A stretch of 63,916 nt of DNA, counting the filler, from Stramenopiles sp. TOSAG23-6 (taxonomy: Eukaryota), in NCBI GenBank assembly GCA_900128565.1. It is 3 parts of 3 records of this genome, joined end to end, with 100 filler letters (N's around TTAATTAATTAA, not from the genome) between each part and the next. Parts side by side here need not be neighbours in the genome. Positions count along the whole stretch, not along the records: positions 21,596 to 42,888 come from LT636029.1; positions 42,989 to 63,916 come from LT636032.1; 1 more part is not named here. One strand, given 5' to 3'. This document shows, one piece after another, positions 25,716 through 63,916 of this stretch. Each line of letters begins with the position of its first letter. The stretch's first letter is position 1. The position numbers and the translations under genes are program-made. The notes under the pieces were generated by a model. The model was not told the DNA's origin and did not search any database. It worked only from the letters and a program-made list of their open reading frames with translations.

Positions 25716-26959
25716 CCACATGTTTTTTTCTACGTGAATACAATTTCTTCAACCGGTCATCATCAAATTGTCTTTTTGCATCTCGAAAGAAATGATCTAC
25801 GACTTCTTGACTCTCTTCTGCTGCATCCTTTTGAGGATCCTCAAAATAACGTGTACCAAGTCCAGCCGTTTCACCACCAATTTTTACTGGAGGAATTCCC
25901 TGCGATTTTCTCCAGAGATTTGAATCGCGAAGAGAATACGAACATCCACAAGTATTGTAAAAAAATATTTCAAAAAATTGTAACTTGTTAGGTACTTACG
26001 TCCTGTACCTAGGAAATTTTCTATCAAAAAAACAGAAGATAAAATTAAAATTTGAAATTAAAGTGGATAACATACAATACTCTTGCTTATAAAAACTTTG
26101 TTTTGCCGAAATTTCGTATTTTCGGAGAGTCATTTATTTCGTGTCAATATGTCAAAAAAAAAAAATCTGTTAGGTACAAAATTTCGTATTAAAAAAAAAA
26201 AAATGTATGAAAAAAAAACATACATTTCATCTGTTTGCTAATTGTAGATCCAATACTGAATGTTTGGATATCGTGCAGCTGCACGAAGACCACTATCATT
26301 TACTTGGCGCACATCTTTCCAACGAGATGTTGCGTTTGTTGTAGTAAAACACGGAAAATCATGTATTGTGAGAAGAAAAAAAAACAATTGTTAGGTACGA
26401 AATTTTCTATGAAAAAAAAATATTTGAAATCATCATGAAAACATACATGAGCTTTGGCATATGCTGCTGTGACCTCCATTCTCATATCAAAGCAAGCAGT
26501 ACAACGAACCCCTCGCTCAGGATCATATTCTAACCCTTTCATTCGTTTAAACCAGGATTTGGCATCATAGTCTGCGTCCACAAAATCCACACCGTGCTGC
26601 TTCGCATATCGTTTGTTTTCCTCTTTTCGAATTTCATATTCTTTTCTCGGATGGATATTTGGATTATAAAAGAAGATTGTAACATCAAGACCCTTTTCTA
26701 ACATTTCTTCAAACATTGCACCAGAACAAGGTGCACAACATGAATGTAAAAGTACCCTTTTCGCGCCATTTGGTGGCATTGCATTCATCTGTGGAGTACA
26801 ATCAATAGAGTATGGTGCGGATTCTGCTGGGTTATTTCGACAGCCCTTGTGACTGCAACTGGGAGCAGCAGACGCTCCATTATCGTAGCACAGAGCAATT
26901 GGGGCGCGTGCCAAGTGCCTATCAGATGGCATGTCGGCTGCAACATGTTTCAGATCCAT
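25690..26959 (-). CDS. queH: Epoxyqueuosine reductase QueH (DUF208), 4 exons, one in-frame TAG
   Basis: [29 protein letters not shown], and after splicing FYKQEYCGC; TAG at 26238-26240. Confidence 0.85.
25950..26075 (-). other. Non-canonical intron GT-TT (126 nt)
   Basis: tt|gtatgt...gtacctaac...acaatactt|g; restores QEYCGC. Confidence 0.85.
26132..26223 (-). other. Non-canonical intron GT-AT (92 nt)
   Basis: at|gtatgt...gtacctaac...cacgaaataaat|g. Confidence 0.8.
26361..26446 (-). other. Non-canonical intron GT-AT (86 nt)
   Basis: cat|gtatgt...gtacctaac...cacaatacat|g. Confidence 0.85.
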
Positions 26960-27192
26960 TCAGTGATTGATATTCATTGTTGCGAAAAAAAAACTACCTA
27001 TATAATCTACTAGACTATACGAAAGATTAGTATAATCGCAAAATCGCGCGTGATTGATAAGTATTTTTTTTTGCAGCAGCTGACTCGATGTTTTATGATG
27101 CTGTCATAAAATGCTACTCTACGCACACGCCCGTTCGAGTTAGCACCCACAGTGGAACACACAGTTAGTTCATAATTCTATTACTGACTAAA

Positions 27193-28383
27193 ATGTCTGG
27201 AGGCGCTACATTCACACCTCGCATATACCCGCGACCAACTCCTCTTTCTTCTTTTAAGGTCTACTCGAGGGCAACGTTGAGACATATTCGCGGTCCTTTA
27301 TTAGCTGTTGGCGTGACGTTTGCAACTAGGCCTTTATACAATCAACTTTCTAACTGTTTTCATTCGGATCGTTTGTTTTTTTCATTTTCAACCACGCTAG
27401 TCCATTTTTTTGTCTACTTGACGGTCAATACTTTTTTCTATTTGTTAGACCGCAATTGTTGGTTACTGCATTACAAGTTAGATCGCAAGAGGGCTCAGTT
27501 ACCCTCAACAGCCTTGATGAGAAGTACCTTAATTGAGGCTATAGTAAGTCAACTAGTCCTTGGACCACTACTTTTATATTGTATATTCCCTGTATTCAAA
27601 TATTTTGGACAACCTGGAAGAGATCAACCTCTTCCAAGCATTATGGAACTAATGCGAATGTATGTTCTCTGTGTATTTTCCAATGACTGGGGTTTTTACT
27701 GGAGTCATAGAACTTTCCACTGTAAAGCTATTTATAAGTTTTTTCATAAAACGCACCATAAGTATCTTGGTACTGTAAGTTTTGCCGCTGAATATGCACA
27801 TCCATTGGAACAATTGTTTGCAAATCATTTACCTACTGCAATGGCTTGTTTGTGTTTTGGGTTTCCAATTCATGTACGTTTTCATCAATCATTTCAAATT
27901 TGTTTTTTTTCGTAAAAAAATTCTTGTACAACAAATTTCATGTATCAATTTTGTTTTTCAATTTTATTTTTGGACCAAATTCTGTACCTAACGAATTTCG
28001 AATTGGACACTTCCCTCAAAAATACATGTGTGGTTAGTATGGCTTGCATGGAGGCTTGAAGAAACGTATGAAGCACATTCAGGATATGTATGTTTTATTT
28101 TTTTTTTTACAAAAAATTCGAATTTATTTTTCGTACGAAATTTTGTACCTAACAATTTTTAGTTTTTTTTTTGAAATATTTTTACAAAATACATGCTTTT
28201 CATGGCTCTATATTGCATCGATTAGGTTTGACAAATAGTGAGGCTGCAATTCACCACGACTATCATCACACTGCGAATAGAGGAAACTTTGGAGCTTTGT
28301 ATCTTGATCATTATTTTGGAACTATGGATGGTTTTTTATCTCTTGGAGGAGAAGAAGAATATATCAAGAAAAAGAGTACATAA
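27193..28383 (+). CDS. Sterol desaturase / C-4 methylsterol oxidase (fatty acid hydroxylase family), 3 exons
   Basis: His boxes HRTFH, HKTHH, AAEYAHPLE, EAHSGY, HHDYHH line up after splicing 27874-28027 and 28088-28194. Confidence 0.9.
27874..28027 (+). other. Non-canonical intron GT-AT (154 nt)
   Basis: cat|gtacgt...gtacctaac...caaaaatacat|g. Confidence 0.85.
28088..28194 (+). other. Non-canonical intron GT-AT (107 nt)
   Basis: tat|gtatgt...gtacctaac...caaaatacat|g. Confidence 0.85.
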
Positions 28384-28590: not shown

Positions 28591-30071
28591 ATGTCATGCT
28601 CAAAGACTTCAAAGTTGCTTACTGAAGCCTATCGCAAAGTTGGTGCTTTTATGCCTACAACCTTAAGGCAAGTTCCTTTAGTAAAAACGTGGTCAAGTCA
28701 ACTTTGTTTTGAGTCTCTCAAATCAATCTTGGGTGAAGACAAAACACTTACAATAAAAAGTTCTGAAAATCGAGAGTTTATGTATAGCGAACGCGGCACG
28801 TCTGATAGACTTCTTGATAGTGGTGTTGGTAGCTCTACTGAAATAGTTGACATGCAAGTAGCAGACTTTTTTTCAGCTTTACGAGGTCAAGATGGAGAAA
28901 CTCCGAAGTTCCATTACTTTACTTCAATGCTTGATGACTTGGCTCCAAGGTTAAGTGAGACACACACTCCTGGATGGGAAAATTTTGTAGTTGACCATGA
29001 CCCGTTAATTAAATTGCACCCAATGAGTGCACCATCATACCCAAGTATTTGGATGGGTGGTAATGGGTCAACTACCCAAGCTCACTATGATGTATCAAAC
29101 AATATATTAACTCAAATATTTGGCAAGAAACGATTTCGACTTTGGGGACCTGATGCTCACCTTTCACTTCGAGTATTTCCTGATGCTCATCCTCGAGCAA
29201 GAAAAGCTCAGCGTATTATACCAAATAAATATGATGGGTATAGGAGCAGACGTAACTCTTCTGAAAGGTATGAACTTCCTTTACCGCCACCTGTGTTGGA
29301 TGTTGTACTTGAACCTGGTGACTGCATTCTCATACCCGCATTTTGGTTTCATCATGTAGAAGCTTTAGAAGAATCGATATCTGTCAATATTTTTTCGGAA
29401 AGTAAGATGAAGTTAGCTGCCTTGGAAATATTATCAAAGTCTCTACCTTCTCCTCTGCTTCGATGTGTCGAAGACAAATCAAATATAAATGAAATATCGA
29501 ATGTATTTTCACTGTTAGCTAATGATCTAGCATCTGCCATAACATTAAATAATAAGATATATAAACGGGAGAAATGTAGTTTCTTGGATTGTATGGTACA
29601 TTCTAGATATGATTTTGCGTCGGAAAGATTTGTAATGAATACAATGACTACAAGTAATGTAGTGAATAATCCAAATATAATAGCAAATGTCAAAGAAAAC
29701 ACGAAACAATTTCTGCCTCTATTTAATGATTTAGTAAAATCAGTTGAAAAAATATACACCAGCAATGCTATTGATCCTACAGGATCGAATGAAAATGTTT
29801 TATTAGATGGTAAAATTGTCGATGAAAAGTATCTTTTATTTTTTTTCAATTTTGAATTTATTTTTCGTACGAAATTTTGTACCTAACAAAATTTTTTAGA
29901 TTTTTTTTGAAATATTTTCCAAAATACAAGTATCCTTTAGGATTGAAAGAAATTATATTTGGTCATTTACTAGAGATGTGGGCTGTTCGCTGTAGTCATC
30001 TTTCAAAGAATAAAACGTTTACCACAAGTTCTCTTCTGCAAATGGCTGCTGAAGTAAGTAGAACACCATAA
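28591..30071 (+). CDS. JmjC/cupin-like 2OG oxygenase (start uncertain)
   Basis: IWMG..GSTTQAHYD, GKKRFRLW, LEPGDCILIPAFWFHHVE; intron 29829-29929. Confidence 0.85.
29829..29929 (+). other. Family intron, GT-AA (alternatively GT-AG to 29930 with early stop)
   Basis: aa|gtatct...gtacctaac...ccaaaatacaa|g; the AA end joins to ORF 29877-30071. Confidence 0.65.
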
Positions 30072-30367: not shown

Positions 30368-33300
30368 ATGACATGGAAACTGTCGTTCGCCAATGCTCCG
30401 GAGATTACACCAAAGCGTAAAGAAGATTTGCCTCACTCAATATCGGATGAGTGGTGCGCAAATTGGTTTAGTCGGGTATTTTTCTACTGGGTTACGCCAC
30501 TGGTTCACTTAGGAGCACACAGAGCACTTCGTGATGGTGATTTGGGTGAACTTGCACCAGGTTATCGTGTGTTCCGACGCTTAGACGACTTGAAAAAAAA
30601 TCTTTGTGTGTACGACGCAGATGTTGTTCGCGCTACTTTACAAACATATCGTCGACAAATGCTTTATGGTGGTATTTGTAAACTCTTCGGTGACGCTTTA
30701 CAGTTTGTTACACCTTTAGCACTAAAGATTGTTCTACAATATGCTCAGCAGCACCGTAATGAACCAAATGTTCCAGAAGAAGAATGGTTTGGGCTTCCAA
30801 AGGAGTTTTTTGCCTCAATTGCACTGTTCATTGCACCAGCTTTGACTGGGCTTCTCTATCATTGGTATTATCAATGGGTTATGTACGATATCAAAATTGA
30901 ATTTCAAATTTATTGTTTTGTAGAAAATTTTGTACTCAAACGATTTAAAAAAATATATATTTTTTTCACAACACATGTGGGCTGGACTGTATGTTCGAAC
31001 AAGTTTACAGGCATTAGTATATCGGAAGTTACTGTCTATTCCATATAGCGCAATTGGTAGTACTAATTCAAAACAAAAAAACGATAAGAAAAATTCTGAA
31101 AAAGCAAAAAATAAAGAAACGAAAGAAAAGAACACTGATGATTCTAAAAAGTCTGAAAAAGCAAAACCAAAATCCGTCCTAGCTGGACATATTGCGAATC
31201 TTCAAAGTCAGGACACTGTTGCTGTTGAGGGGGCATTATGGATGATTCATTATTTATGTATGTTTCGTGATGATTTTTCCTATTTTTCTTGGTAGACATT
31301 TTTGTACCCTAACAAAAAAAATCGAATTTTTGAAATATTTTTTCATCATCTATGGGCCGCTCCTCTATCAGTTGTTGTTTGTCTTGTTTTGTTGTATATA
31401 GAACTTGGTCTTGCAATGATTGCAGGAGTTAGTATTTTAGTTATATTAATACCTATTCAAAAAATAATTGCAGGATATATTGCTACTATAGCAAAAACAA
31501 CTTTAAAATGTTCTGATGAGAGACTTGAAACAGTTACTGAATGTTTGTTTTCAATTTCAAAATTTGATTTTTTTTTTCGTACGTAATTTTGTACCTAACG
31601 ATTTTTTTAAACTTTAAAAAAAAATCACAATACATGCATTCGGGGTGTGAGAATAGTTAAAACATTTTGTCTGGAGGAAATAATGCGTAATCGTGTGAAA
31701 AAAGCAAGAAAGAAAGAATTGCGTAGTTTATGGTACGCAGGACTATTAAGAGAGGGCAATGTTGCATTAATGCTTTCAGGTCCTTTACTATGTGCTTTGT
31801 CAAGTTTTGCATTATTTGTTTTGATTTCAGATGACGAGCTCACTGCCTCTAAAGCTTTTGTATCACTTGTATTATTTAACATGTTGAGAATGCCTTTAAT
31901 TCTAATACCAATGTCAGTTGGTATGGTCGTTCGAGGTTATGTGTCTGCAAAACGAATTACTGAATTTCTCCGACTTGATAATATTCAAGGATACATACAA
32001 AAAAATAATCATGGAGTTAATGCAGTTGTTGTAAATAATGCAACATTTTCATTCAGTGAAATGAATGATAAAAAAAGCGATACTCGTATCGATCCAAAAG
32101 CACACACGACGAGGCGTACTAATGACGATGAACAAGAATATTCTCCAGTAGTTGATAATATTGATAGCATGATCGAAATGAACGATGTTAATACTAAAAA
32201 CACTAACCCTAATGAAGGTTTCTATTTGAGAGATGTAAATATAAGTATTCAAAAAGGAAATTTGTGTTTTGTTGTAGGAAAATTTGGGTCAGGTAAGACT
32301 GCATTTCTTCACTCGTTACTTGGAGAAATGCATCTTGTTCATGGTTCCGTTTCTGTTGGTGGAACAACAGCTTTTGTGGGACAAAGTCCCTGGATATATA
32401 ATGCTACTGTAAAAGAAAATATAATTTTTGGGACTCATAAAAGTTTGTCTGATCATTCAATGCAACATCAAGACAATATTGGATTGGATAAAGAGAGATA
32501 CTCTGAATGTTTACAATGCTGTTGTCTACTTCACGATTTAGAAACCCTTCCAAATGGTGATGAAACCGAGATAGGCGAACGAGGTGTAAACATTAGTGGA
32601 GGTCAAAGAGCTAGAGTGGCTCTTGCACGAGCCATATATTCTAATCCGGATGTACTATTTCTTGATGATGTTCTTTCAGCAGTTGATGTTGATGTATGCC
32701 GACACTTAGTTGAAGAATGTATTGTTCCAATGATTAAACAAGGTAAAACTGTAGTAATAGCGACACATTCAATAAATTGGCTTAAGATTGCTGATCAAGT
32801 TATAGTTGTTAATGAGGGTGCAATTGAGTTCAATGGAAGCGCAGCTGATTGTATCAAAAGTAATGCGCTTATCAATATAAAATCTGAAAAAAATGAAATA
32901 TCTGAAACATCTAATACATTTGAAAACGATGATAGTGTACCAAACGAAAAAGTGAGCGTTACAAAAGTCAAACTTGACTCTGAAAAAGTTGAAGAAGAAA
33001 AGTCATCGAAGAGTCAGAAATCTCAAGATGGAAGATTGACCAAAACCGAGACAATGCAAGAAGGCTCAGTGAAGTCTCAAGTACTTCAAAAGTATATATC
33101 GTATGCTGGAGTATTCTTAACAATAGTTGTTTTATCTTCGGTAATTTTGCAGAATGCTTCAGCATTATTCTCAGATTGGGTACTCTCTCGCTGGGCAGAA
33201 GATCGAGGATCTAGATCTCCTACAACTAAAAAACCAGAACATTCTCATAATTATTGGTTGGGGATGTATGCCCTAACTGCCTTGGGTACACTGATATCAA

Positions 33301-35179
33301 TTTGTGTTTTTAGGGTTTGTGGTTTGTATGCGGGCCTTGGAGCAGCGAAGAAACTTCACAGTAATATGCTTCATGCATTATTAGGAGCACCATTGAGATA
33401 TTTTCATGTATATGACCCTTTTGTTACTTTCATTTTATTTTTACTATGAAAATTTTGTACCTAACGATTTTGGCTTTTAATTTTTTCACAATACATGTGA
33501 CTCCTGTAGGGCAAATGATAAATCGTTTTGGAAGCGATACTCGTAAAGTTGATAATGATATATTTACGTCGATAATGGGTATGTTGACAATACTTGTTAG
33601 TATAATATGTGTATTAGTACTTCAAATACTTTTATTATGGTGGTTGATTGCTTCGGTAATACCTCTGTTTTTTGTATACGCGTACTTTGCAAAAATATAT
33701 CGTAGTTGTTCACGTGAACTAAAGCGGCTTGAAAGTGTGGCTCTTTCACCTGTGTTTAATGCATTCGAGGAAGCACTTGCTTCGGGTGGTCTACAAACAA
33801 TTCGTTCATTTGGTGTACAGAGGAGATTTATGGATCAAATGGCCGACAGAATTGATAACCATTCACGTGCATGGACAAAAAATAACTTTGTGAATCGTTG
33901 GATGGGCACAAGACTTGATTGGATTGGGGCATTTCTTGTTGGAGGTGTTGCTTTTGGAAGTGTTATGTTTATATATCATGATTCAACTAATGGTGGTGTA
34001 GCAACTTTAGATACAGGAATGATTGGTCTATTAATAGTAGCAACGTCGCAAGTGAGTAGCTCTTTAAATTGGGGAGTGAGACGAGTTTCTGAGATGGAGT
34101 CGAATCTTGTTTCAGTTGAAAGAATTTTAGAAGTGTGTGAAGTAGATCAAGAAGTAATTACTCGATGTAGTGTAGACGATGTTTCAACAGATTCAAAGAT
34201 AGTAATACCATCGGCTATTGTAGGGTGTATTGAAATGAAGGACGTAAAGATGAGATACCGCGAAAACCTCCCTCTAGTTCTGAAAGGTATTAATTTTATA
34301 ATTCCAGCTGCTTCGTCAGTTGGTGTTGTTGGCAGAACAGGCAGTGGCAAATCTTCTTTAATTAATGTCCTTGTACGTCATGAATTTTAAATTTCTTCTT
34401 TTTTTTACTGTGAAAACTTTTTTATCTCATGAATTTTGTACCTTAAAAAGTTTTTCCACAGTACATCTTCGATTGGTTGAGCCCAGTGATGGAATTATAT
34501 CCATTGATGGTATTGATTGTAGTAAAATTGATCTTAATGTCTTGCGAACTATCATCACTGCTGTACCTCAAGAAGCTGTTATGTTCTCTGGATCTTTGAG
34601 AGAAAATGTACGTTTTAATTTTTTTTTTCGTATGAATTTTCCTACCTAAAAATTTTTTTTGGAATATTTTTTCATTATTGATTTGATGATTCATTTCAAT
34701 TTGTTTTTTAAATTTCATACCTAACGATTTTTTTTTGATATTTTTGCACAATACATATTGATCCAGGAAATGAATTTGACGATGCGCAATGTCTTGAGGC
34801 TTTAGCAGCTGTAGAATTACAAGATTTTGTTCAAACTCTCTCAGAAGGTCTTTCGACAAATGTTTCTGCATTAAGTGCTGGTCAACGCCAATTAATTTGT
34901 TTTGCTCGGGCTTTAGTTCGCAGACCTAAAGTTTTGTTGATGGACGAAGCGACGTCTCATATTGATCATAAAACTGATTCAAAGATTCAAAGTTGGATAA
35001 GTCAGAGAACTGGTTTGTTGAACAATACTACTATCTTTATTATAGCACATAGAATAAATACGGTAATGGATTGCGATCATATCATTGTAATGGATGATGG
35101 AAAAATTATTGAATTTGGAAATCCAAAAGAACTTTTATCAAATGGTGGAGCTTTTAAAACTCTCCTTTATAATTCATAA
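30368..35179 (+). CDS. ABCC/MRP-type ABC transporter, 7 exons
   Basis: Two TMD-NBD halves; GKFGSGKT, ISGGQRAR, GRTGSGKSS, LSAGQRQL, DEATS; continuous after removing six family introns. Confidence 0.92.
30883..30976 (+). other. Non-canonical intron GT-AT (94 nt)
   Basis: at|gtacga...cacaacacat|g. Confidence 0.8.
31258..31353 (+). other. Non-canonical intron GT-AT (96 nt)
   Basis: at|gtatgt...gtaccctaac...catcatctat|gg; gives HYLWAAP. Confidence 0.85.
31543..31635 (+). other. Non-canonical intron GT-AT (93 nt)
   Basis: at|gtttgt...gtacctaac...cacaatacat|gc; gives TECIRGVRIVK. Confidence 0.85.
33408..33496 (+). other. Non-canonical intron GT-AT (89 nt)
   Basis: cat|gtatat...gtacctaac...cacaatacat|g; gives YFHVTPVG. 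Confidence 0.85.
34373..34466 (+). other. Non-canonical intron GT-AT (94 nt)
   Basis: ctt|gtacgt...cacagtacat|ctt; gives GKSSLINVLLRLVE. Confidence 0.85.
34608..34756 (+). other. Non-canonical intron GT-AT (149 nt, duplicated 3' module)
   Basis: aat|gtacgt...catacctaac...cacaatacat|att; gives SLRENIDP. Confidence 0.85.
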
Positions 35180-37568: not shown

Positions 37569-38328
37569 ATAACTTGTTCTATTTGTTTAATAAAAGTCTA
37601 TGGCATATTTGCAGTATAGTATCCTTCTTTCCTTCAGAGATGACATGTATGTGTACTAATGAGTGTACCTCTCCCTCTTTTGTGCTTGCAGTTACATTTT
37701 GATTCGAATTGAATTGAATGAATTAAGGTAGTCGGGTACGTTTTTCGTGATTTCGGTCATTTCTGAGACAATAGATGCTTCAAAATGACAAAAATAATTA
37801 ATTTTATGACAAAAGCCCACGACAAAAGTTTTGAAATAGTGTCAAGTTCATTATTACCATGCTTAGGTACCAATGAGATAATTTTTCTAGTAGCCCCATT
37901 AAAATGATCTTGTGTGACTCCATTTTTCTGGAATTTGCTGATTTCAGAGGTGATTTTAATGGGGCTACTAGACAAATTATCTCATTGGGTGCTAAGCAAG
38001 ATAATAATGAACTTGACACTATTTCAAAACTTTTGTCGTGGGCTTTTGTCATAAAATTAATTATTTTTGTCATTTTGAAGCATTTTTTTTGTGTGATTTC
38101 TGTCGTTGATTATTTTCCAATTTACTACAAAAGTTCAATAAAATGAGTTTATAACAAACATATAACAATGACTACAGATACGACTATAGTTAAAACGTTT
38201 TATTGAAGCTATATGCAGCCATAATCAAAGGCACATTCATTGAAGCTTTCTCATATTATATAAATCTTCACTCTGAAATTGCTCATTGGAACTATGAAAT
38301 TGCTCATTGGAACTACAAAATGCTCTCT

Positions 38329-38706
38329 ACAACACCTATAAATCATCCATTTCCATCAAAACTGCAAAGTCATCTGTATATCTTTCTTCTAATGCTGCAT
38401 CACATGTTGACTCTTGTTCTGTAGAAGCCACACTGCTATAGACATCTAGCCATTGGAAAAAAAAATGTCATTATTTCATTAATGAAATAATGTACATTTT
38501 GAACTTACACGACAGCAATTGGCGCAATTGGCGATACTATTCAATGAGGACGATCTAGATCTGGTGAAGGTGTTTTCAAAATTGATCGAGCTGATGGTTT
38601 TACGTTACAACACCTGTAAATCATCCATTTCCATCAAAACTGCAAAGTCATCTGTATATTTTTCTTCTAATGCTGCATCACATGTTGACTCTTGTTCTGT
38701 AGAAGC
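38329..38706. repeat. 100-bp imperfect direct repeat (38329-38428 / 38607-38706)
   Basis: Duplicates the 3' end of the exonuclease ORF. Confidence 0.85.
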
Positions 38707-39576: not shown

Positions 39577-39606
39577 TTCTTTTGGTTTTGATTTTTTTTT
39601 TTTTTT

Positions 39607-42988: not shown

Positions 42989-43071
42989 TATTTCAAAAAA
43001 AAAACTTAAATTTGTTAGGTACGAAATTTCGTACGAAAAAAAAATAAATTAGAAATTCATATAAAACATAC

Positions 43072-44312
43072 ATGATTCTAAATTTTTGCATACTAATTCA
43101 ACACCAGCTAATGCAAATCCTTCACAGTATTCAATATCTTCTTTTGTCATATATTTTGGAAAAATATTGTTTTTTATTGTTTTGTTTTTTTTGGTTAGGT
43201 ACAAAATTTTCTATATATATATGTATTTTTTTTTTTGGAAATACATTTTTGTAGTAAAAATTTTGTTCTTCAAAAAAACAGTATTCAAAAATGATGATAA
43301 CGGACATTCCATCACGATTTAGCATTGTTTCATTAGGTACCATATATGCCTCAATTGAATGAGACAATGCATCCACGCCAGTTGCAAAAGTAAGTAATGC
43401 AGGCTTCTTGCAAGTAAATTGAGGAATCAGTGCCGCAGATTTAGGAAGGAGCGCAGGATGACCAAAAACAACTTTGATTTCATCCACATCTTTAATCACG
43501 CAACTCTTACCACCATCAGAACCCGTGCCAGCAGTTGTAGGAATTGCACCAAATTCAGGGACAGCTTGTACCCAAGCTTCATCTACTATATTGGGTAGAC
43601 CTCGACGACACGTTTCTGTAATAAAACGAGCAGTATCATATATCGTGGAAAATATTTTTTTTTTTTTGTAAAAAAATTCGTTAGGTACAAATTTTGGTAT
43701 AAAAAAAAATTCAATTTTGAAAACGTACATCTGCAGTATGAAACGAAGGATTGCTTCGTGCTTCGGCTACAACGGCCATACCTCCTTTTGCGGCATCTAT
43801 TGGTCCACCGCCACCTACACCGATACATGTATTGCAAAAAATATTTTGCTTTCAAACGTTTTGTTAGGTACAAATTTTCAAATTTTCATTGTAAAAAAAA
43901 CATATTTTACGTTCAATTTTGAAAACGTACATGAATCACATTTTCCTTCCTCAAAAGCAGCAGCAATGTGAGCAACGTCAGCGTGACTAGGGTCCGGTGT
44001 GCATTCGTCAAAGACAAAAGGTGTCATGCCAACATCACGCAACTGTGCTACAACTTCATCAACGATACCAAGAGCAGAAACTCCTGCATCAGCTACAATA
44101 AGAGGTCTAGAGCATGATTGTGCTTTTAAGCGGTCAACGAAGAGTGCAAGTGCTTCTGTTCCTGCAAAAATTGACTGGTCTGGAAAGTTCAAGATGTTTA
44201 GGTCTGTATTGAAACTCAATGTTGGTTGATGGAAAGTATTTGATAAAGTCGATAACAGACGAAGGCGTTTCGCAGCTGAACTCACTACGACCCGATGAGC
44301 ATATCCCATCAT
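43072..44312 (-). CDS. Iron-containing alcohol dehydrogenase (3' partial, at least 4 exons)
   Basis: Spliced CIGVGGGGPIDAAK, AIPTTAGTGSD, TGVDALSHSIEAY; introns 43827-43930, 43638-43728, 43149-43305 and one from 43071 into the gap. Confidence 0.88.
43149..43305 (-). other. Non-canonical intron GT-AT (157 nt)
   Basis: at|gtccgt...gtacctaac...ccaaaatatat|g. Confidence 0.8.
43638..43728 (-). other. Non-canonical intron GT-AT (91 nt)
   Basis: gat|gtacgt...gtacctaac...cacgatatat|g. Confidence 0.8.
43827..43930 (-). other. Non-canonical intron GT-AT (104 nt)
   Basis: at|gtacgt...gtacctaac...gcaatacat|gt; restores the GGG motif. Confidence 0.85.
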
Positions 44313-46053: not shown

Positions 46054-47328
46054 ATGGAGATGAAACTAAACGGTAACTCATTAACCAAGCAGACAAAAGT
46101 TGCCGTAGCAGCTGCTTCAACTGCCGCTCTATTGGCGCGTAAGTCTTCCATTCGAGCCCTGGCTATTGCAGAAAACTCAATTGCACGTATCCAATGTAAA
46201 CCACAACAAACAGATCGTGAAGTAGAATTACGAATTATCCATAAGTTAGACTCAAAAAATATCCATTTTGAAACATTTCCTAGTTTCAAAATGTTTGAAA
46301 ACCAAGAAACAGGTAAAGTCCTCCACCGACATCCACAAGATGAAGGTACTAATTTCAGTGCTACTCATGATGGATCAACTTTAAATAAAGATGAAGATTT
46401 GAGGTATCAGTTACAGCTATATGATAGAGATCAAAATAGAAGAAATAGAAAATATATAGACACGAAATACAATGATCAAAATAGAATAAATAGAAGAAAA
46501 TATATCGACACAAAATACAAAACAAAGCAGACACCAAAGCAGAGACCGAATACTGCACCTCAGAAAAATGTATTTAGCAGAAGAAAACAAAGGATGCTTG
46601 CAATGGTTCCTGTAAAGACTAAGGACAGACCAACATCATCCAGTCCATTCAAACAACGAATTCGAAATGAAACACACGAAATACATGGAATAATTACAAA
46701 CTTTTGTTTTCAAAGACAAAAAAATAAGTGCAGAACACCAACAGATAGATTCTTCAAAAAAACAGCACGTGTATATAAAGCACGACTCCCTAGGAATACA
46801 GTCCACCAATTAAGACATAACCCTAACCCTAGTAGGACAAAACAAAAAAAGAAGAACAATCAAAAAAATCAGAAAATGGTAATAATGGAGGACGATCCAC
46901 TACTTGGTCGTTTTAAAAATAGTACTATAGTATCTACTGACATATCGAAATCTTCACTAATACAACGAAATCCTCGAACAAAATTATCTCCAAGTGATCT
47001 TTCCGATTTCAATTCTGTCCAATTTAACACTTTTGTGAAAAAAAAAAGTTTAAGGTTGAATGAAAAGAAAAAGAATGATGTACTAAAAAAATACAAAAAT
47101 TCATATCAAACGCTTCCAACTGAAAACAGGAAAATGGTAATTAAGGGGACAGTATGGTACTCCAGCAGAGAAAGGCACACAGGTAGAATATTTCATTATA
47201 ATAGACAAGGCTTGCGGAAATGGACATTACCTAACCCTAATGACCCTAACCCTAACCCTCATGACGATTCTGAAATGTATAGGCCCAAAGAACAACGAAA
47301 TATTTCCCATCTAGTTCGAATCATGTAG
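46054..47328 (+). CDS. Basic low-complexity protein with C-terminal WW-like domain
   Basis: WYSSRERHTGRIFHYN..GLRKWTLP. Confidence 0.6.
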   Translation: MEMKLNGNSLTKQTKVAVAAASTAALLARKSSIRALAIAENSIARIQCKPQQTDREVELRIIHKLDSKNIHFETFPSFKMFENQETGKVLHRHPQDEGTNFSATHDGSTLNKDEDLRYQLQLYDRDQNRRNRKYIDTKYNDQNRINRRKYIDTKYKTKQTPKQRPNTAPQKNVFSRRKQRMLAMVPVKTKDRPTSSSPFKQRIRNETHEIHGIITNFCFQRQKNKCRTPTDRFFKKTARVYKARLPRNTVHQLRHNPNPSRTKQKKKNNQKNQKMVIMEDDPLLGRFKNSTIVSTDISKSSLIQRNPRTKLSPSDLSDFNSVQFNTFVKKKSLRLNEKKKNDVLKKYKNSYQTLPTENRKMVIKGTVWYSSRERHTGRIFHYNRQGLRKWTLPNPNDPNPNPHDDSEMYRPKEQRNISHLVRIM

Positions 47329-47483: not shown

Positions 47484-48880
47484 CTAACTGTCTAACTTTT
47501 CTAATAACCATGGATGAAGTTGTGCTTGCTCCCCATTATATCTACAATTCGGGTCTGGATGTAGAAGCCGACTAACTAAATCTTGGGCTTCTTTTGACAC
47601 CGTTTTCCAAATTGGATGATCAAATTTTACATGTTGTACATGTTTGGAAGTCTTTACATATTTGTTAGGGTTAGGGTTACCAAAAAGCCAATTTCCAATT
47701 TGTTGTAGAGGTGTCCACTGTAGGTCATAATATTTTTCAACGTTTTTCTTAATGGGAAATGGAGGATAACCACAAAGCATTATATATAGTAAGCAACCGA
47801 CGGAGAACCAATCAGCAGGAAAGCCATACTTCTGACCAATGTATATTGTGAAAAAATATTTCAAATTTTTGTAAAGTTTTTTGTTAGGTACAAAATTTCC
47901 TAAGAAAAAAATTCCAAGGAAAAAAAAAATGAATAATGAAAACGCATTTTCTTGACTTCTGGGGCTTGAAAGCCAAATGAACCACACACTGTATCCGTGA
48001 TTAAGCGAGGGTTATAGCTATTATTTGAGTGACTACTGCTGCTGATAAAGTCTTCTGTGACTTCATCTGACTCCATTTTTAAAGCTAAGCCGAAGTCACA
48101 AATTCGAATTTTGTATTTATTTTGGGTCATTGAAGGAGTGTTTAATAGCAATATATTTTCAGGTTTGAGATCTCGATGTAAAATACCGAGTGTGTGTAAT
48201 GTAAGAACTCCACTGATAATTTGACTGATAATATCCGCTGCTTCACTTTCACTCAAATGTCCTTTTTTTACGATAAGATCAAATAATTCGCCACCATCAG
48301 CTAACTCAGTAACAATAAATATTCGTGATGGTGTTTCAGAAATATCATACACACCAATAATCGGGGAACACATTTGACGAGGATAATTTCCTAACCCTCC
48401 AACTAATCCTGAACCTACACTTGAAAAATATGGCTTTCTAGATTGTAGTTGTAGGAGAGCAAGAAAGCGAAGAATATTAACTTCGTTTTCAATTTTAGCA
48501 CTAGCAGCAAGCTTGTGCCAGAACCCTTTGAAAACTATTTTGACAGCGCATGGTCTTGAACATTGATGAAGGTCTGCTGCAGCCCAAACGTCACTAGTCC
48601 CTCCTCGATTAAGAAAGTAAAGCAACTTATACCGTCCTTTTTTTCCAACTAAGTTGCCTGCGGAATACGAAAAGTATTGCCGTAGAAAACGTTTTACAGA
48701 GCTGCTACTATAAAAAAAACTACAACCTACAACAGCAATAGCTGCTATAGTGACATAACCTCCTTTAGGTGGATTAAATAGCATTTCACGGGTTGTTGCA
48801 ATAACAAAAGTATAAGTCAGATTCAATGTATATGAAAAATTATTTGGCCAAAAAAAAAAGATGATCGACACAAGCACCAA
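47484..48880 (-). CDS. CAMK-group Ser/Thr protein kinase (2 exons)
   Basis: AVK, ELADGGELFD, HRDLKPEN, DFG, APE, D.FS.G; intron 47839-47945. Confidence 0.9.
47839..47945 (-). other. Non-canonical intron GC-AT (107 nt)
   Basis: at|gcgttttca...gtacctaac...cacaatatacat|t; gives APEVKKIGQKYG. Confidence 0.75.
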
Positions 48881-49127: not shown

Positions 49128-52107
49128 ATGATATTTGCAATAGTTCTATTTACGTTAACGCTTATTCCAAGTGTTTTATCTGTTGAGAAAGTTTTACCAA
49201 ATCCTTTTATATTCTTTGGTTGTTATCGCCACGATTCACAAGCTCAGGTATCTAAATGGGGGTCACAGATCGATGGATTTACTTGGGAAGAGTGTGCACA
49301 AACTGCAGCTGCAGCTGGTAGCCTGTGGTTTGCAATGGAATTTCCTCAAGGATTCAAAAAAGTCGGGACTGCCAACTGTGGTCATCGAGGCCATTTCTCA
49401 TTAGAAGGCAGAGTACCAAATTCCATGTGCGAGGCAGAAATGAATAAAGGAAAACGTCTCGGTGGTTCAAAATTGATGGCAGTTTATTTCAATCCTTCAG
49501 AATATAAGTTGAACTTTCAGTCACTTTTACATTCAGAGTTTTTATTAATTTGTAAACTTCAAGTACAAATTGACAATATATCACATGTAATATATTTTGA
49601 TGCTGAAGAAGATTTAATGCTAGTAGCACATACTTTTGCTATAGAACATGGTATTTATCCTATTACAACTACTGTAGATTCACTCTTTCCTTCTTGTACG
49701 TTGTCTACTTTTACTTTCATTTTTTTTTCGTACGAAATTTCGTACCTAATATTTTTTTTCCATATAAAATCCAAATCCTATAATTTTTTTTCTGTATTGT
49801 CCCTGACGAATTTTAAATTTTTGAAATATTTTTCAGCAATATTTGGGAAATTTATCAAAGAATAGATTTTCCTGTAAAGTCAAAACTATTAGCCGATGAT
49901 AAAAAAAGCCCTAACCCTAAGGCATTTTCTACGAATTCATCTCGTCCTTTACTAATTAATCATAATATGTATAGAAAAGCGAAACAAATAGCTCGGATAT
50001 CTTCGGATGTAGATCGCATGTACGTTTTCAAAATTAAATTTTAAAATGTTTTCATACGAAATTTTGTACCTAACGATTTTTTACAAAAAAAAATATTTTT
50101 CACAATACATTGGTCTTGGAGTCTCTCAAAATGGATTGCTCAATAGATTATTGATTCAAGGTGAAGGAATCATGTCTATAAATTCTCCAAATATACAAAT
50201 CCCTGATGCGTATTTATTGAATAAGGCATCCGTTATGATTGGCCTTCAAAATATTGATGAGTATCATCAAAACACGAAATATAAGTCTCCAACTAACTTG
50301 TTCGATGTACATGGTACTGCTCATAATAATGACAAAGATGATGATTATAACTTTGAACAACGAAAAAATGTCCAAACTAGATCATATATTGAAAAAAGCA
50401 AAGAATCTGGAGAAGCAGACATTTATTTTATTAGAAAAGGTGAAAGAAAAAATACTATAAAAAATAATAGTGATGATAGTAAAAGCTATGATAATAGTAT
50501 GATCAAACTGAAAGCCCCAGTTCAATATGTCTTCAAGGATAGATCAAGATATTGGTTAATTCAAGAGCAAATGATTCGAAACAAACCTGCTTCAATGATC
50601 ACTGTACTTGAGTCAATTGTACGTGAAGCTTACTTGGATGAGTTGGCAATGTTATTAGGCTTACAAAACTCATATGTTTCGTCTGCACCTGCATGTACGT
50701 TTTTATCATGAATTTCAAATTTATTATCGTTTTTAGTACAAAATTTTGCACCTAAACAAAAAAGATTTTTTTTTTTGAAATATTTTTCCACAATACATAC
50801 ATATGTTTAAAACGATCTTTTGATGGTCATAGATGTATTGTGAAAAAAATTGGCATTCTTCAAGATTTTGTGCAAAGTCCATTTAAAAAAAAATCACACA
50901 AGAAAAAAGATCAAAATGATAAAGATGAATTTTTGCCAGGAGATTGGCGATCACTTTTAAGAATGGATGAAGCTACGCCTGAAAGAGTGAAGGAAATTTC
51001 GCAACGTTCATTTCAGGATGTAGCCTTACTTTTTTTTGTACGTTTTCAACATCAATTTCATGTTTTTTTTTCCATAAAAAATTCAAACCTAAAGAAATTT
51101 AAATGTAAACATATTTTCTCACGATACATATCACAGCTCATCCTGATCTTCATGGGGGGAATCTTCTAGCTCATACTCAAAAACTACAAAAACAGAAAGA
51201 AACAAATGATGATAAATTTGGAAAAATTGAAATGAAACTAATTGATGCCGACATGACATTTAACCACTCTCCAGGCTGTCATGTTGGAACAATACGAATG
51301 CCTTGTATTTTTGGAGGAGCTGCGACGTGTACGTTATCCACATTTATTTCAATTTTTTTTTTTTTTGAGTTTAAAAAAAAACATTTTTCAATTTTTTTTT
51401 GAGTTTAAAAAAAAAACATTTCATACCTAACAATTTTATTTTTTTATTTTTTCACAATACATTCTTTTCAAGTCCATGTATATTTTCAAAAGGTTTCCAT
51501 AACAAGAATGGTTTGGATGCATGTCCGTCATTTCCGCATATACATCTTCCATTTGATGATCACTCAATTGAACTTATACGAAATTGGAATCCTGAAAAAA
51601 TTAGAGAAAAGTTTTTTCGTAATGAATCGATTATTGAAGACGCCTGTTGGCGTCTTGATATATCTCCTTTTGTTTGTCCCTCAATGAAAGACATTTTTCG
51701 TAATGGTACAGTAGAATTATTGATGTTACGAATTGAAACACTTAAAGAAATTCTTGGAATATATGTATATTTTCATCGTGAATTTTAAATTTATTTTTTC
51801 GTACGAAATTATGTACCTAACGATTTTTTATCCAAAAAAAAATATTTTTTTCACACTACATGATCAAACAAAACAGAATAATACAAACAATAGTGATATG
51901 AAACAGATGTATGACGAAAAAGATGAAATGGAAAATGTTTGTGTCGATGAAAACAAAAAATGTAGACAGTTTAGTGCAAAAAAAACAATTTTGGAGGTAT
52001 ATGAAGAATTTGCCCCTCTTTACATATATAAAATTCTGAGATCTGGTGATAAAGTATTTGCTCATTATAATAGAAATGAATTTGTTTTAGGTGGCGCGAT
52101 GCATTGA
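49128..52107 (+). CDS. Secreted protein with atypical kinase-like domain (PI4K-II/Fam20/HipA-like motifs), 7 exons
   Basis: Signal peptide; spliced product has YVFK, GILQDFV, DLHGGNLL, LIDAD; six family introns. Confidence 0.65.
49696..49844 (+). other. Non-canonical intron GT-TT (149 nt)
   Basis: tt|gtacgt...ccctgac...cagcaatattt|gg. Confidence 0.7.
50020..50110 (+). other. Non-canonical intron GT-AT (91 nt)
   Basis: at|gtacgt...gtacctaac...cacaatacat|t. Confidence 0.85.
50695..50798 (+). other. Non-canonical intron GT-AT (104 nt)
   Basis: at|gtacgt...cacaatacat|ac. Confidence 0.8.
51038..51129 (+). other. Non-canonical intron GT-AT (92 nt)
   Basis: tt|gtacgt...cacgatacat|atc. Confidence 0.8.
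51329..51462 (+). other. Non-canonical intron GT-AT (134 nt)
   Basis: gt|gtacgt...catacctaac...cacaatacat|tc. Confidence 0.8.
51765..51861 (+). other. Non-canonical intron GT-AT (97 nt)
   Basis: tat|gtatat...gtacctaac...cacactacat|g. Confidence 0.85.
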
Positions 52108-52353: not shown

Positions 52354-52654
52354 TTAATCGGAGAATATAGACAAAGAACGATCCTCTCCAACTTTTTCAG
52401 AAGAATCATTATTATCATTGTTATTATTATCATTTTCATCACCAATGTGCTTCCGAAGTTGCTCTTTCCATCGAGAATGCCAAGTACTGTGAAAAAATAT
52501 TTCAAAACATTTTTAATTTTGTTAGGGTTAGGTGTACCACAATTTTCTATGAAAAACTAAATAAATTTGAAATTGAAATGATAAAAAAACGTACAATCAT
52601 CAGCACTTGGCCCCGAATCACCAAAAACACTATTTTCTTCTCCCATTTCTTCTT
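52354..52654 (-). CDS. Displaced 3' end of the gene starting at 63364
   Basis: 52590-52654 is the reverse complement of 63852-63916; after splicing reads ...SADDWHSRWKEQL...SD*. Confidence 0.65.
52482..52594 (-). other. Non-canonical intron GT-TT (113 nt)
   Basis: tt|gtacgt...cctaaccctaac...cacagtactt|gg. Confidence 0.75.
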
Positions 52655-54397: not shown

Positions 54398-54491
54398 AAT
54401 TTTATTAAAATGTTATTAAAAAAAAACAATAAATGGTTNCGTAATATAAATAGTTAGACTTGAAATTTTATTAAATAAGACTGGTAAATGT

Positions 54492-56465
54492 CTAAATAAC
54501 ATTTGGAGAACGACCAACGATCACCATACTCTGACGAATTTGCTTACGATTCATATTTTCACCTTTAATCATATTTGTCCTTCTTTGCTCATGCATTGTC
54601 AAAAAAAAAAACAGACTCAAAATGTTTTTGTTAGGTACAAAATTTCGTATGAAAAAAAAAAACTAAATTTGAAATTCACAATGAAAACGTACATATTTTC
54701 GTTTATCCCAATGTCTTTTAAATCCTCCCGTCCAGGACGATTCGCCTATTTTGAGTCTCTGGAATTGCAAATGTTTTTCTTCATTGAAGTTTCTCCGTGT
54801 TGAACGTGAAGCAGCCGCACTTTGAGTTCGCTTATATTTAGATTTAGATGAAATACCAGTTTTATTCTTTGAATTCATTCCGCGATATTTTCGATCAGAG
54901 TGTCGTGTAAGTGGCGCTGAGGAAATTTGCCTTCCAGATCTATTTTGTTTTGTACCAAAATTTGTAATTTTTGTTCTATTTCTATCGTATTTTTCTGTAA
55001 CCAGAGATTCCGCACTCTTACCAAGATATTGCTCATATTGCTTCGTAGTCACATCTACGCTTTGTCTTGATTTTCTTGAAGCTGATGAACATAGTCTTTC
55101 ACTTCTGGTTGCTGGTGGTCTTCTATGGCCTGCATCTGTCGAGCCAGGGCGTTGTGTAGATCTCAAGGTACCCGCTGTGGTGGGTCGTGCAGTTTTTCTT
55201 TTCATACGTCTATTTGTACCAAATTCTGTACCTAACGAACGCCTTTCTTGTTTCGGACTTATTGGAGCCTTTACAGCGATAAGTCTAAAGTTCATATCAT
55301 TATCAATATGATTTGAACGATTTACTACGCGAAAAGCGGACTGAGCTGTTTCGTTAGACAACGGACCACTTTCAGTATTATTCCAGGCAATTTTTTGGTT
55401 GTAATGCTTGTTCTGTATTGTGGCTGAACGTTTTTGGTTATGATGCTTGTTCTGGTGTGTGACTGAAGGAATGACGTTGTCCTTAAGTATTGTGAAAAAA
55501 TATTTCAAAAAATCTAAAAAAAATTGTTAGGTACAAAATTGCCTATGAAAAAATACATTCGAAATTGAAAAATAATGAAAACGTACAATATCATTAGAAT
55601 TCGTCAAATTACTTTGAAAACTATTACTTGAACTACATCTTGAACCACGATCTCGAGTACTACTTGTAACACTTTGTTCATGAGCAGCAATTTCAATTCG
55701 GTACGCATTTGCTAAAGCTGTACCGATACTACTATTATCTGAATTTTGGACTAATGGCGGCGTTGGAATGAATGCCGATCTACTTTCGAAATCAAAATTA
55801 TCAAAGGTATTACTATGAGTTGGCTTTACAGTACGTTGTTGTGTGTTCTTTTCAATAGACTCTTGCTCTTTGTGTACAATACTTTCCTTATTTTCTCCTA
55901 GAATGGTTTTGTTAATACTATCTTCACCGACGTTGGTTTCACCGAAAAGATCAACTATTGATAAATATTCTTCGTCACTACTGGTACAATATTGTGTAGT
56001 TGAATTTGACAAAAATCGTTTTGGCTTATGCATATTTCGTTTATACTTATTTCCTCCGTATACTAGTATTTTTTTCCTATTTTGAAGCATCGTTTTCTTT
56101 CTTGGTACGAACTTTTTAACACTTTTAGAAGTGACTACATCAGGGGAGAATATTCCAGAAATTGCATTATCAAAGCTGCCCCTTGGATCTACACTTCGCT
56201 TATGTTTTTTATAGCTATTACATTCATTGTTGTAGACTCGCCGAGCATTCACGAGTTTCTTATCAAATACTCGTACTGATTTCTTTCCTACTGGAGATAC
56301 CAATACACTTTTCTTGTGTAACGTGTGCGACGTTTTGTTTACCTTTTTCTTCTTCGGTGAATAGGACATAAGCACCTTGCGCTTTCCCGAATTAGCAAGT
56401 TTAGACTCCTTAAACCTTCTGTCCATATTAATGATTTGGTTTGTTACAAGATAATCATTGGTCAA
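54492..56465 (-). CDS. Hypothetical basic/disordered protein (3 exons)
   Basis: ORFs join in frame after removing 55485-55586 and 54591-54692. Confidence 0.65.
54591..54692 (-). other. Non-canonical intron GT-AT (102 nt)
   Basis: tat|gtacgt...gtacctaac...gacaatgcat|g. Confidence 0.8.
55485..55586 (-). other. Non-canonical intron GT-TT (102 nt)
   Basis: att|gtacgt...gtacctaac...cacaatactt|aag. Confidence 0.8.
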
Positions 56466-63911: not shown

Positions 63912-63916
63912 GTACG

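What the first reader, a model, noticed from the sequence alone, without database searches (positions are those of the whole stretch)
25950..55586. Acceptor dinucleotide copies the exon end: TSD-like signature of introner insertion
Seen: most junctions read AT|GT...AT|G. All four TT-ending introns (25950, 49696, 52482, 55485) have TT before the GT, and the AA-ending one (29829) has AA before it. This gives a 2-3 nt direct repeat (ATG/TTG/AAG) around a GTA...TAC inverted terminus. Five junctions do not match (1157, 21432, 34373, 51038, 51329). Inference: the introns arose as short mobile elements (introners) whose target-site duplication supplies the 3' end, with a preference for NAT|G sites, an 'AT|G' analogue of the AG|G protosplice site.
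Basis: partly seen in the sequence, partly recalled or inferred. Interest (0 to 1): 0.82.

Follow-up and report, generated by a model that had tools for sequence, protein, structure and literature searches.

The report
Introner-type introns ending in AT, not AG
Every intron found in this stretch of a marine protist genome is a copy of one ~95-base element flanked by a 2-base duplication of the exon end and spliced at a non-AG 3' end, which points to a mobile element that spread as introns.

Summary
I listed 34 complete introns and 2 cut by contig joins. All belong to one homologous family: 5' GTAYGTTTT, a central near-palindrome running into GTACCTAAC, then a T-rich tract and a 3' box CACAATAC plus 2 bases. 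None of the 34 ends in AG (AT 29, TT 4, AA 1). The last two intron bases equal the last two exon bases in 29 of 34, and the last base in 34 of 34. All five non-AT introns match their exon (permutation p about 1e-5).

The boundaries hold up independently. Nine of nine junctions in two conserved genes align to homologues without any indel. RNA contigs from two studies skip exactly the predicted 154 bases at one intron.

Descent from common copies is supported by whole-length similarity, a subfamily whose 5' and 3' variants are linked (4 of 4 against 1 of 30), local identities up to 97% between introns of unrelated genes, and relatives that lack two of the three QueH introns.

My best reading is an introner with a 2-bp target-site duplication that supplies an AG-independent 3' splice site (confidence 0.68). 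Not shown: inverted termini beyond 3-4 bases, an autonomous partner, or a genome-wide sample. I rate it a new variant of a known kind.

The parts
907..1004 (+). family intron, AT|GT..AT|G, 98 nt
   Evidence: nhmmer E 4e-14; joins open frames of 199 and 64 codons
1157..1250 (+). family intron, TT|GT..AT|G (mismatch at -2), 94 nt
5081..5170 (+). family intron, AT/AT, 90 nt
17303..17401 (+). family intron, AT/AT, subfamily GTATGTTTTAT..CAAAATAC; in the AFG1-like ATPase gene
17714..17804 (+). family intron, AT/AT, same subfamily
18111..18212 (+). family intron, AT/AT
21336..21432 (-). family intron, GT/AT; 3' end uncertain; lies 3-5 nt after another copy
   Evidence: upstream frame cannot be checked because of the contig join
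21437..21499 (-). 3' part of a family intron cut by a contig join; 97% identical over 59 nt to 17342-17400
   Evidence: I7
25950..26075 (-). family intron, TT|GT..TT|G, in QueH
   Evidence: YKQEY|CGCSYS aligns to 9 homologues with no indel
26132..26223 (-). family intron, AT/AT, degenerate 3' box, in QueH
   Evidence: [12 protein letters not shown] aligns with no indel
26361..26446 (-). family intron, AT/AT, in QueH
   Evidence: absent at this position in relatives P0121, P0126, P0129
27874..28027 (+). family intron, AT/AT, 154 nt (extra partial copy inside), in the fatty-acid hydroxylase gene
   Evidence: RNA contigs of runs X3 and X6 skip exactly 154 nt (27870->28025, 5 letters fit both sides)
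28088..28194 (+). family intron, AT/AT, subfamily
   Evidence: a contig's match resumes at 28193
29829..29929 (+). family intron, AA|GT..AA|G, in a JmjC/cupin gene
30883..30976 (+). family intron, AT/AT, ABCC gene
   Evidence: a contig starts at 30977
31258..31353 (+). family intron, AT/AT, ABCC gene
31543..31635 (+). family intron, AT/AT, ABCC gene
33408..33496 (+). family intron, AT/AT, ABCC gene
34373..34466 (+). family intron, TT|GT..AT|C (mismatch), ABCC gene
   Evidence: INVL|LRLVEP against xxxL|FRxxE; an RNA contig matches up to 34372 and then leaves
34608..34756 (+). family intron, AT/AT, 149 nt, ABCC gene
42990..43071 (-). 5' part of a family intron cut by a contig join
   Evidence: I5, I10
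43149..43244 (-). family intron, AT/AT, iron-type alcohol dehydrogenase gene
43638..43728 (-). family intron, AT/AT
43827..43930 (-). family intron, AT/AT
47839..47945 (-). family intron, AT/AT, starts GC (two bases missing from the 5' motif), protein kinase gene
49696..49844 (+). family intron, TT|GT..TT|G, 149 nt
50020..50110 (+). family intron, AT/AT
50695..50798 (+). family intron, AT/AT
51038..51129 (+). family intron, TT/AT (mismatch)
51329..51462 (+). family intron, GT/AT (mismatch)
51765..51861 (+). family intron, AT/AT
52482..52594 (-). family intron, TT|GT..TT|G, G-patch gene
54591..54692 (-). family intron, AT/AT
55485..55586 (-). family intron, TT|GT..TT|A
   Evidence: joins open frames of at least 200 codons on each side
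57427..57525 (+). family intron, AT/AT
62091..62185 (-). family intron, AT/AT

Best explanation
The introns are copies of one short non-autonomous mobile element, an introner. The element carries its own 5' splice site (GTAYGT), a branch-site-like box (GTACCTAAC), a T-rich tract and a 3' box (CACAATAC). It most likely inserted with a 2-bp target-site duplication, usually AT, less often TT or AA, with G preferred as the next base.

The splicing machinery cuts before the element's first G and two bases after its last C. That removes the element plus one copy of the duplication and restores the original reading frame exactly. The 3' end of the intron is therefore whatever dinucleotide the target site supplied, and AG is not needed.

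Shown: the family relationship, the locus-specific 2-nt identity, exact restoration of conserved proteins, and RNA-level removal of one copy. Inferred: insertion by a staggered 2-bp cut, and splicing by a U2-type spliceosome that has given up the AG requirement. The five mismatches all have AT on the intron side; I read this as later drift or selection of the intron end towards AT while the exon copy stays fixed by coding. That reading is also inference.
For: Family: the motif GTACCTAACA (at most 1 mismatch) occurs 29 times against 2.6 expected. A profile built from 10 copies recovers all the others. Twenty-seven copies of typical length align end to end.

Descent rather than shared signals alone: a subfamily links the 5' variant GTAT[GC]TTTTAT with the 3' variant CAAAATAC in 4 of 4 introns, against 1 of 30 others (p = 1e-4). 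Introns of unrelated genes share 97% over 59 nt, 93% over 57 nt and 89% over 66 nt (I7, I10, I5). Both contig joins fall inside copies.

Duplication: 29 of 34 match at both bases and 34 of 34 at the last base. All 5 non-AT introns match their exon.

Boundaries: all 34 join long open frames in the sense orientation. After removing its 6 introns, the ABCC gene gives a 1398-codon open frame. Nine of nine junctions in QueH and ABCC align to homologues with no gap. RNA contigs from runs of two studies skip exactly the predicted 154 nt. At the mismatch junction 34373, an RNA contig matches through both exon T's and then leaves, and the conserved Leu is kept only if the cut is before GT or one base upstream.

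AG independence: 0 of 34 introns end in AG. Fourteen of 32 contain an AG between the branch box and the 3' end that is passed over. The distance from branch box to 3' end is 30-46 nt in 31 of 32, so the site follows the 3' box and not a fixed distance.

Gain or loss among relatives: P0121, P0126 and P0129 run uninterrupted across QueH intron 1, and P0126 also across intron 2.
Against: The sample is small: 34 introns, of which only 5 carry locus-specific information. No genome-wide test was possible.

The terminal inverted repeat is 0-4 nt per copy. Subterminal inverted matches barely exceed shuffles (6.6 against 5.5 nt).

The window holds no autonomous element and no full-length intergenic or antisense copy, only fragments. 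The one transposase present is Mutator-like; by recall, that superfamily makes longer duplications.

The last base never mismatches (0 of 34) while the base before it does (5 of 34). This hints at a functional constraint on that position rather than pure history.

The copies are diverged (median pairwise identity 68%, maximum 88%), so activity is not recent throughout.

A relative (P0126) leaves the QueH reading frame at the TT-intron position, within about one base by my back-translation. That could mean an older shared intron.

All copies are genic and sense, which RNA-mediated spread would also give.
Confidence: 0.68

Rival explanations
1. Signal model. These are ordinary (possibly old) introns of a lineage whose splicing machinery demands long signals. 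On this view the exon end and the intron end look alike because the same factor reads both, as with AG|G...AG in other eukaryotes, and not because of a duplication at insertion.
For: All 34 introns in the window share the signals and no GT-AG intron was seen. The best-conserved blocks are the ones expected to matter for splicing: the 5' end, the branch box and the 3' box. The last base is identical in 34 of 34. One QueH intron position is shared within about a base with a relative.
Against: A fixed reader cannot explain the locus-specific TT/TT (4 of 4) and AA/AA (1 of 1) pairs. Similarity extends over stretches between the signal blocks. Subfamily linkage and 89-97% local identities between unrelated genes indicate copying. 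Relatives lack introns 1 and 2 of QueH.
Confidence: 0.14
2. RNA-mediated spread. Spliced-out introns re-enter other transcripts by reverse splicing and are copied back into the genome, as has been proposed for fungal introner-like elements. The 2-nt identity would then come from site choice or splicing constraints.
For: Copies are only genic and only sense. There is no real inverted repeat. No transposase partner was found. Pieces of the family are very abundant in poly(A) metatranscriptome contigs: 1363 and 1136 contigs were laid in two runs, most of them on intron pieces.
Against: By the established chemistry, reverse splicing inserts a fixed intron sequence and makes no duplication. An intron end that changes with the target (5 of 5 non-AT cases) is therefore not expected. 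In a genome this gene-dense, selection alone would also leave only sense copies.
Confidence: 0.12
3. Register artefact. The true introns are AT-AC (or another register), or canonical GT-AG, and the apparent copying of the exon end results from where the boundaries were drawn.
For: In the 29 matching introns the cut can slide by 2 to 7 bases without changing the mRNA, so the register cannot be told there. The source's own gene models forced GT-AG.
Against: The repeat is in the DNA whichever register is chosen. With an AC end, the 5' end becomes the variable one (AT 24, TT 7, GT 2, AA 1). At 34373 the RNA contig and the conserved Leu exclude the shift by two. The forced GT-AG models put extra residues into conserved motifs, or read through introns, compared with homologues.
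Confidence: 0.04
4. DNA-level excision of ciliate-like internal eliminated sequences bounded by a 2-nt repeat.
For: Short elements inside coding sequence, with a 2-nt direct repeat of which one copy is kept.
Against: Family sequences are abundant in RNA libraries alongside a spliced form. The elements carry splice-site-like and branch-site-like boxes and a T-rich tract. By recall, no nuclear dualism is known in this group.
Confidence: 0.02

Closest known systems
Introners that carry the 5' splice site and take the 3' site from the target-site duplication (example given for Chrysochromulina sp.; also Micromonas IE1) - Gozashti et al. 2022 preprint, passages read; review PMC11282704, passages read
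   Same: A short multi-copy intron family in unrelated genes. It shows a locus-specific match of the 5' flank and the 3' end. Splicing leaves the mRNA length unchanged. There is little or no inverted repeat.
   Different: There the duplication is 3-4 bp and supplies a canonical AG. Here it is 2 bp, and the 3' end is AT, TT or AA in all 34 introns.
Non-canonical, MITE-derived introns of Fritillaria borealis (Henriet et al. 2019; seen only as described in the review PMC11282704)
   Same: A transposon-derived intron set that dominates the genome. The exon-end sequence is repeated as the 3' end of the intron. Non-canonical ends are tolerated by the host machinery.
   Different: Fritillaria introns are mostly AG-AC or AG-AT with TAC before the intron and clear inverted repeats. 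Here the 5' end is a normal GTAYGT, only the 3' end is unusual, and the inverted repeat is 3-4 nt.
Introner elements of Amoebophrya (PMC7789003, passages read)
   Same: Repeated non-canonical introns with short direct repeats overlapping the exon/intron boundaries. They also made standard gene prediction unfit.
   Different: Amoebophrya elements have 8-20-nt inverted repeats that form hairpins, 3-5-nt repeats and no consistent dinucleotides. Here no conserved fold was found (0 pairs) and there is one dominant boundary type, GT-AT.
Euglenid nonconventional introns (as described in the review PMC11282704)
   Same: Non-canonical ends, and repeats at the junctions that resemble target-site duplications.
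   Different: They lack a pyrimidine tract and rely on pairing of the intron ends. Here there is a T-rich tract and a branch-like box, and no conserved pairing.

Membership tests
Introner (transposon-derived intron family) | Many introns in unrelated genes that are similar over their whole length | tested here: met
   34 complete and 2 cut copies in 64 kb. Flanking exons are unrelated apart from one paralogous pair (I4).
Introner (transposon-derived intron family) | Locus-specific match between the 5' flank and the 3' end (target-site duplication), the criterion described in the Gozashti 2022 methods | tested here: met
   29 of 34 match at both bases; 5 of 5 non-AT ends match; permutation p about 1e-5.
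Introner (transposon-derived intron family) | Terminal inverted repeats (present in only some described families) | tested here: not met
   0-4 nt per copy; subterminal matches 6.6 against 5.5 nt in shuffles.
Introner (transposon-derived intron family) | Removed from mRNA so that the coding sequence is restored | tested here: met
   9 of 9 junctions without indel; 154-nt skip in two runs.
Introner (transposon-derived intron family) | Lineage-specific presence or absence of copies | tested here: inconclusive
   three relatives lack QueH intron 1 and one also lacks intron 2. Whether each record is DNA or cDNA is not known for all of them, and only one gene was compared.
Introner (transposon-derived intron family) | Autonomous partner or non-genic copies | tested here: not met
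   only fragments (56551-56620, 58240-58470, antisense 55190-55245). The Mutator-like ORF shows no link to the family.
Canonical U2-type GT-AG introns | 3' terminal AG | tested here: not met
   0 of 34. Internal AGs are passed over in 14 of 32.
U12-type (minor) introns | 5' RTATCCTT and a branch box TCCTTRAC 10-20 nt from the 3' end (consensus recalled, not from a call) | tested here: not met
   The 5' end is GTAYGTTTT. The branch-like box lies 30-46 nt from the 3' end. No snRNA could be sought: there were no Rfam hits in the window and no genome is held.
Euglenid nonconventional introns | Stable pairing of the intron ends and no pyrimidine tract | tested here: not met
   RNAalifold on 26 copies gave 0 pairs. 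A T-rich tract is present.

The most novel reading that the evidence does not exclude
In this uncultured marine stramenopile lineage, essentially the whole intron complement is one introner family. Its spliceosome no longer needs a 3' AG. It cuts two bases past the element's CACAATAC box, so any 2-bp target duplication yields a scarless intron. That would make it a natural system in which the choice of 3' splice site is set by the mobile element.
Probability: 0.4. Interest if true: 0.8.

Novelty: new variant of a known kind. Interest (0 to 1): 0.62.

Why it matters
First, it would add a case in which the intron's last two bases are simply a copy of the target site and are not AG. That bears on how mobile elements become introns and on how far 3' splice-site recognition can drift.

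Second, all introns seen here are of this type, so the lineage may have rebuilt its intron set from a single element.

Third, there is a practical consequence. The two public gene models I compared for this sequence, P0001 and P0122, read through these introns or force GT-AG. Proteomes of this group that are used in ocean surveys are therefore likely to contain false insertions and truncations wherever such introns occur.

Tried and rejected
- **DNA collection scans.** Scanning metagenome contigs and viral contigs with a family pattern gave 0 loci each, so no larger DNA sample was obtained.
- **RNA families.** There were no Rfam families and no tRNAs in the window.
- **RNA fold.** RNAalifold on 26 copies predicted no pairs. 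The central near-palindrome is not kept by compensating changes; I judged this by eye on the alignment.
- **Canonical intron at 30056 (GTAAGT).** Rejected: it is the end of a gene, followed by a stop codon.
- **Longer intron with a 5' site near 43342 in the alcohol dehydrogenase gene.** Rejected: the stretch in question aligns to solved iron-type alcohol dehydrogenases.
- **AG junction for intron 29829.** Disfavoured: it forces a 9-residue gap in all five homologues.
- **Tc1/mariner-like TA duplication inside GTA/TAC.** Rejected: it would leave 6 extra bases, and nine of nine junctions show no indel.
- **Serine-recombinase-like 'carried dinucleotide' model.** Set aside: the four TT introns do not resemble each other more than they resemble the rest (by eye).
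- **Read laying.** Most exons had little or no cover, and 19 joints were not shown. Only one intron has a displayed spliced joint. Parts without cover are not used as evidence.
- **Literature.** Searches found no description of this intron type. Two papers on genomes of this protist group contain nothing on intron boundaries in the passages matched. Supplementary tables of the introner surveys were not seen, so a listing there cannot be excluded.


Full report
**What the window is.** It is an AT-rich (about 35% GC), gene-dense eukaryotic scaffold. It is made of at least three contigs joined by runs of N with a TTAATTAATTAA linker, at 21500-21595 and 42900-42990. Proteins identical to the window's are held under a source label that reads like a MAST-3 marine stramenopile assembly: P0122 is 100% identical over 131 residues, and P0001 is the neighbouring ABCC model. 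The genes are ordinary housekeeping genes. They include QueH, an ABCC transporter, an iron-type alcohol dehydrogenase, an AFG1-like ATPase, a fatty-acid hydroxylase, a JmjC/cupin protein, a protein kinase and a G-patch protein.

**The thing itself.** The motif GTACCTAACA (at most one mismatch) occurs 29 times against 2.6 expected. Printing its surroundings showed that it sits in short introns that are plainly homologous to each other. A profile built from 10 copies found the rest. After correcting coordinates I have 34 complete copies and 2 cut by the contig joins.

Each copy has four conserved parts:
- a 5' end GTAYGTTTT;
- a moderately conserved A/T-rich stretch;
- a near-palindrome, GTACGAAATTTTGTAC, running into CCTAAC;
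- a T-rich tract and a 3' box CACAATAC followed by two more bases.

All 34 lie between long open frames on the same strand. In every case, removing 'GT...NN' joins those frames. I found no canonical GT-AG intron in the window; the one candidate, at 30056, is a gene end.

**Check of the observation.** The last two intron bases are AT in 29 introns, TT in 4 and AA in 1. None is AG. They equal the last two exon bases in 29 of 34, and the last base is equal in 34 of 34. Every non-AT intron (4 TT, 1 AA) has the same dinucleotide before its GT.

Shuffling the ends among introns reached 29 matches in about 2 of 200,000 trials. Fisher's test for TT gives p = 7.5e-4. Neighbouring dinucleotides match in only 1-6 of 34. 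This is the kind of locus-specific match that the introner surveys use to call a target-site duplication (methods passage).

**Are the boundaries right?**
- *Protein level.* Splicing the six ABCC introns gives a 1398-codon frame. All six ABCC junctions and all three QueH junctions align to homologues with no gap at the junction. This set includes the TT/TT junction (YKQEY|CGCSYS) and the TT/AT mismatch junction (INVL|LRLVEP against xxxL|FRxxE).
- *Public gene models.* The models that force GT-AG or read through put extra residues into these motifs.
- *The AA junction.* It competes with an in-frame AG 30 nt upstream. Using that AG forces a 9-residue gap in all five homologues, so the AA junction is preferred.
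- *The alcohol dehydrogenase gene.* A longer alternative intron was rejected because the disputed stretch aligns to solved enzymes.
- *RNA level.* Poly(A) metatranscriptome contigs from runs of two studies (X3, X6) skip exactly 154 nt at 27870->28025, with five letters fitting both sides. That is the predicted intron 27874-28027.
- *The mismatch junction 34373.* A contig matches the exon through both T's, with no unexplained difference, and then leaves. Together with the conserved Leu, this excludes the AT-AC-like register there.
- *Limits.* Contigs cannot resolve the register where the repeat is intact. Most other junctions had no displayed joint.

**Copying or only shared signals?** Five observations favour descent from common copies.
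1. The similarity is not confined to the splice-signal blocks.
2. Four introns share a 5' variant (GTAT[GC]TTTTAT), and all four also share a 3' variant (CAAAATAC), which only 1 of the other 30 has (p = 1e-4). The changes are not complementary, so this is subfamily structure and not base pairing.
3. Introns of unrelated genes share 97% over 59 nt, 93% over 57 nt and 89% over 66 nt.
4. Both assembly breaks fall inside copies. Hundreds of RNA contigs pile on intron pieces (1363 and 1136 contigs were laid in X1 and X2), as expected of a high-copy family.
5. Environmental relatives of QueH differ in intron content. P0121, P0126 and P0129 run straight across intron 1. P0126 also runs across intron 2 but leaves the frame at intron 3. 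P0129 leaves it three codons before intron 2.

By my back-translation (inference), the P0126 intron starts one base upstream of the window's TT intron. That fits a separate insertion with an AT duplication, but a shared old intron cannot be excluded.

**How it most likely works.** The 5' end is a normal U2-type GTAYGT. The box CCTAAC with a downstream T-rich tract looks like a branch site. The 3' cut lies two bases after the CACAATAC box. The distance from the branch box varies from 30 to 46 nt (31 of 32 introns). AGs in between are passed over in 14 of 32. So the 3' site follows the element's terminal box, not an AG and not a fixed distance.

An element that inserts with a 2-bp duplication, and whose RNA is cut at its first base and two bases past its last, is removed without a scar. 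That is what the protein alignments show. No conserved RNA fold exists (0 pairs), and the terminal inverted repeat is only 0-4 nt. Unlike the Amoebophrya, Fritillaria and euglenid cases, end-pairing is therefore unlikely to define the splice sites.

All five mismatches have AT on the intron side. I read that as later change of the intron end towards the preferred AT (inference). The absence of any mismatch at the last base (0 of 34, against 5 of 34 at the base before it) suggests that this base is also under functional constraint.

**What remains open.** The transposition mechanism is unknown. The window has no autonomous partner and no full-length non-genic copy. Only fragments occur, at 56551-56620, 58240-58470 and antisense at 55190-55245. 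The Mutator-like ORF at 39607-41397 shows no link to the family. RNA-mediated spread would explain the purely genic, sense distribution, but not an intron end that changes with the target.

**Comparison and novelty.** Introners that carry the 5' site and take the 3' site from the duplication are known, as are transposon-derived non-canonical introns. This case differs in three ways: a 2-bp duplication, a normal 5' site combined with a non-AG 3' end in all copies, and near absence of inverted repeats. It also appears to be the only intron type in the region.

I found no description of it in six literature searches, nor in the matched passages of two genome papers on this group. I did not see the supplementary tables of the introner surveys. 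I rate it a new variant of a known kind, with interest 0.62.

Noticed in passing
21500-21595 and 42900-42990: The window is a chain of at least three contigs joined by N runs around a TTAATTAATTAA linker. Both breaks fall inside family introns.
   Followed up: partly
21596-21960 and 37719-38083: Two copies (99% complementary, 365 nt) of a foldback element. Each has internal inverted arms of 136-141 nt separated by 37 nt, so it looks like a MITE or foldback repeat unrelated to the intron family (I1-I3).
   Followed up: no
38605-42605 (-): A Mutator-like transposase domain lies in ORF 39607-41397. It is flanked by ORFs with no Pfam match. The 38605-39606 ORF follows in the same frame after a stop codon. 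I saw no link to the intron family.
   Followed up: partly
about 26239-26241 (-): QueH carries an in-frame TAG where all nine homologues have Trp. This could be a sequencing or amplification error, or a real nonsense allele.
   Followed up: partly
25690-26959 (-) and 30368-35179 (+): The source's gene models for these two genes (P0122, P0001) read through introns or force GT-AG. That gives false residues and a truncation.
   Followed up: yes
55190-55245 (+), inside a coding exon of the - strand gene: A fragment of about 50 nt of the family's central part lies antisense inside an open exon, which reads ...RSLGTEFGTNRRMKRK... (D10, 56). It may be an exonised piece or a chance match.
   Followed up: partly
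58240-58470 and 56551-56620: The intergenic stretch 58240-58470 holds three copies of the motif GGTACAAAATTTT; in two of them it runs on into the family's palindrome core (GTAC or GTAA). The last copy is followed by a family-like tail ending in CAG. A degenerate family-like piece starting GTACGTTTTCAAAATT lies upstream of a gene start. These may be UTR introns or dead copies.
   Followed up: no
47839-47945 (-): This family intron has lost two bases of its 5' motif, so it begins GC (GCGTTTT). By eye, the kinase motif spacing across the junction still fits.
   Followed up: partly
63852-63916 (+) and 52590-52654 (-): A 65-nt match at 98% covers an exon end plus the first bases of the intron. A paralogue at the window's end therefore carries the same intron, so this pair is not two independent insertions (I4).
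   Followed up: no
59804-60990; 11394-11624; 12038-12571; 22297-23054: There are tandem coding repeats: 147-nt units, 12-nt units and 72-nt leucine-rich repeats.
   Followed up: no
about 47235-47265 (+), and inside intron 52482-52594: Short telomere-like CCCTAA runs lie inside an ORF and inside one intron.
   Followed up: no
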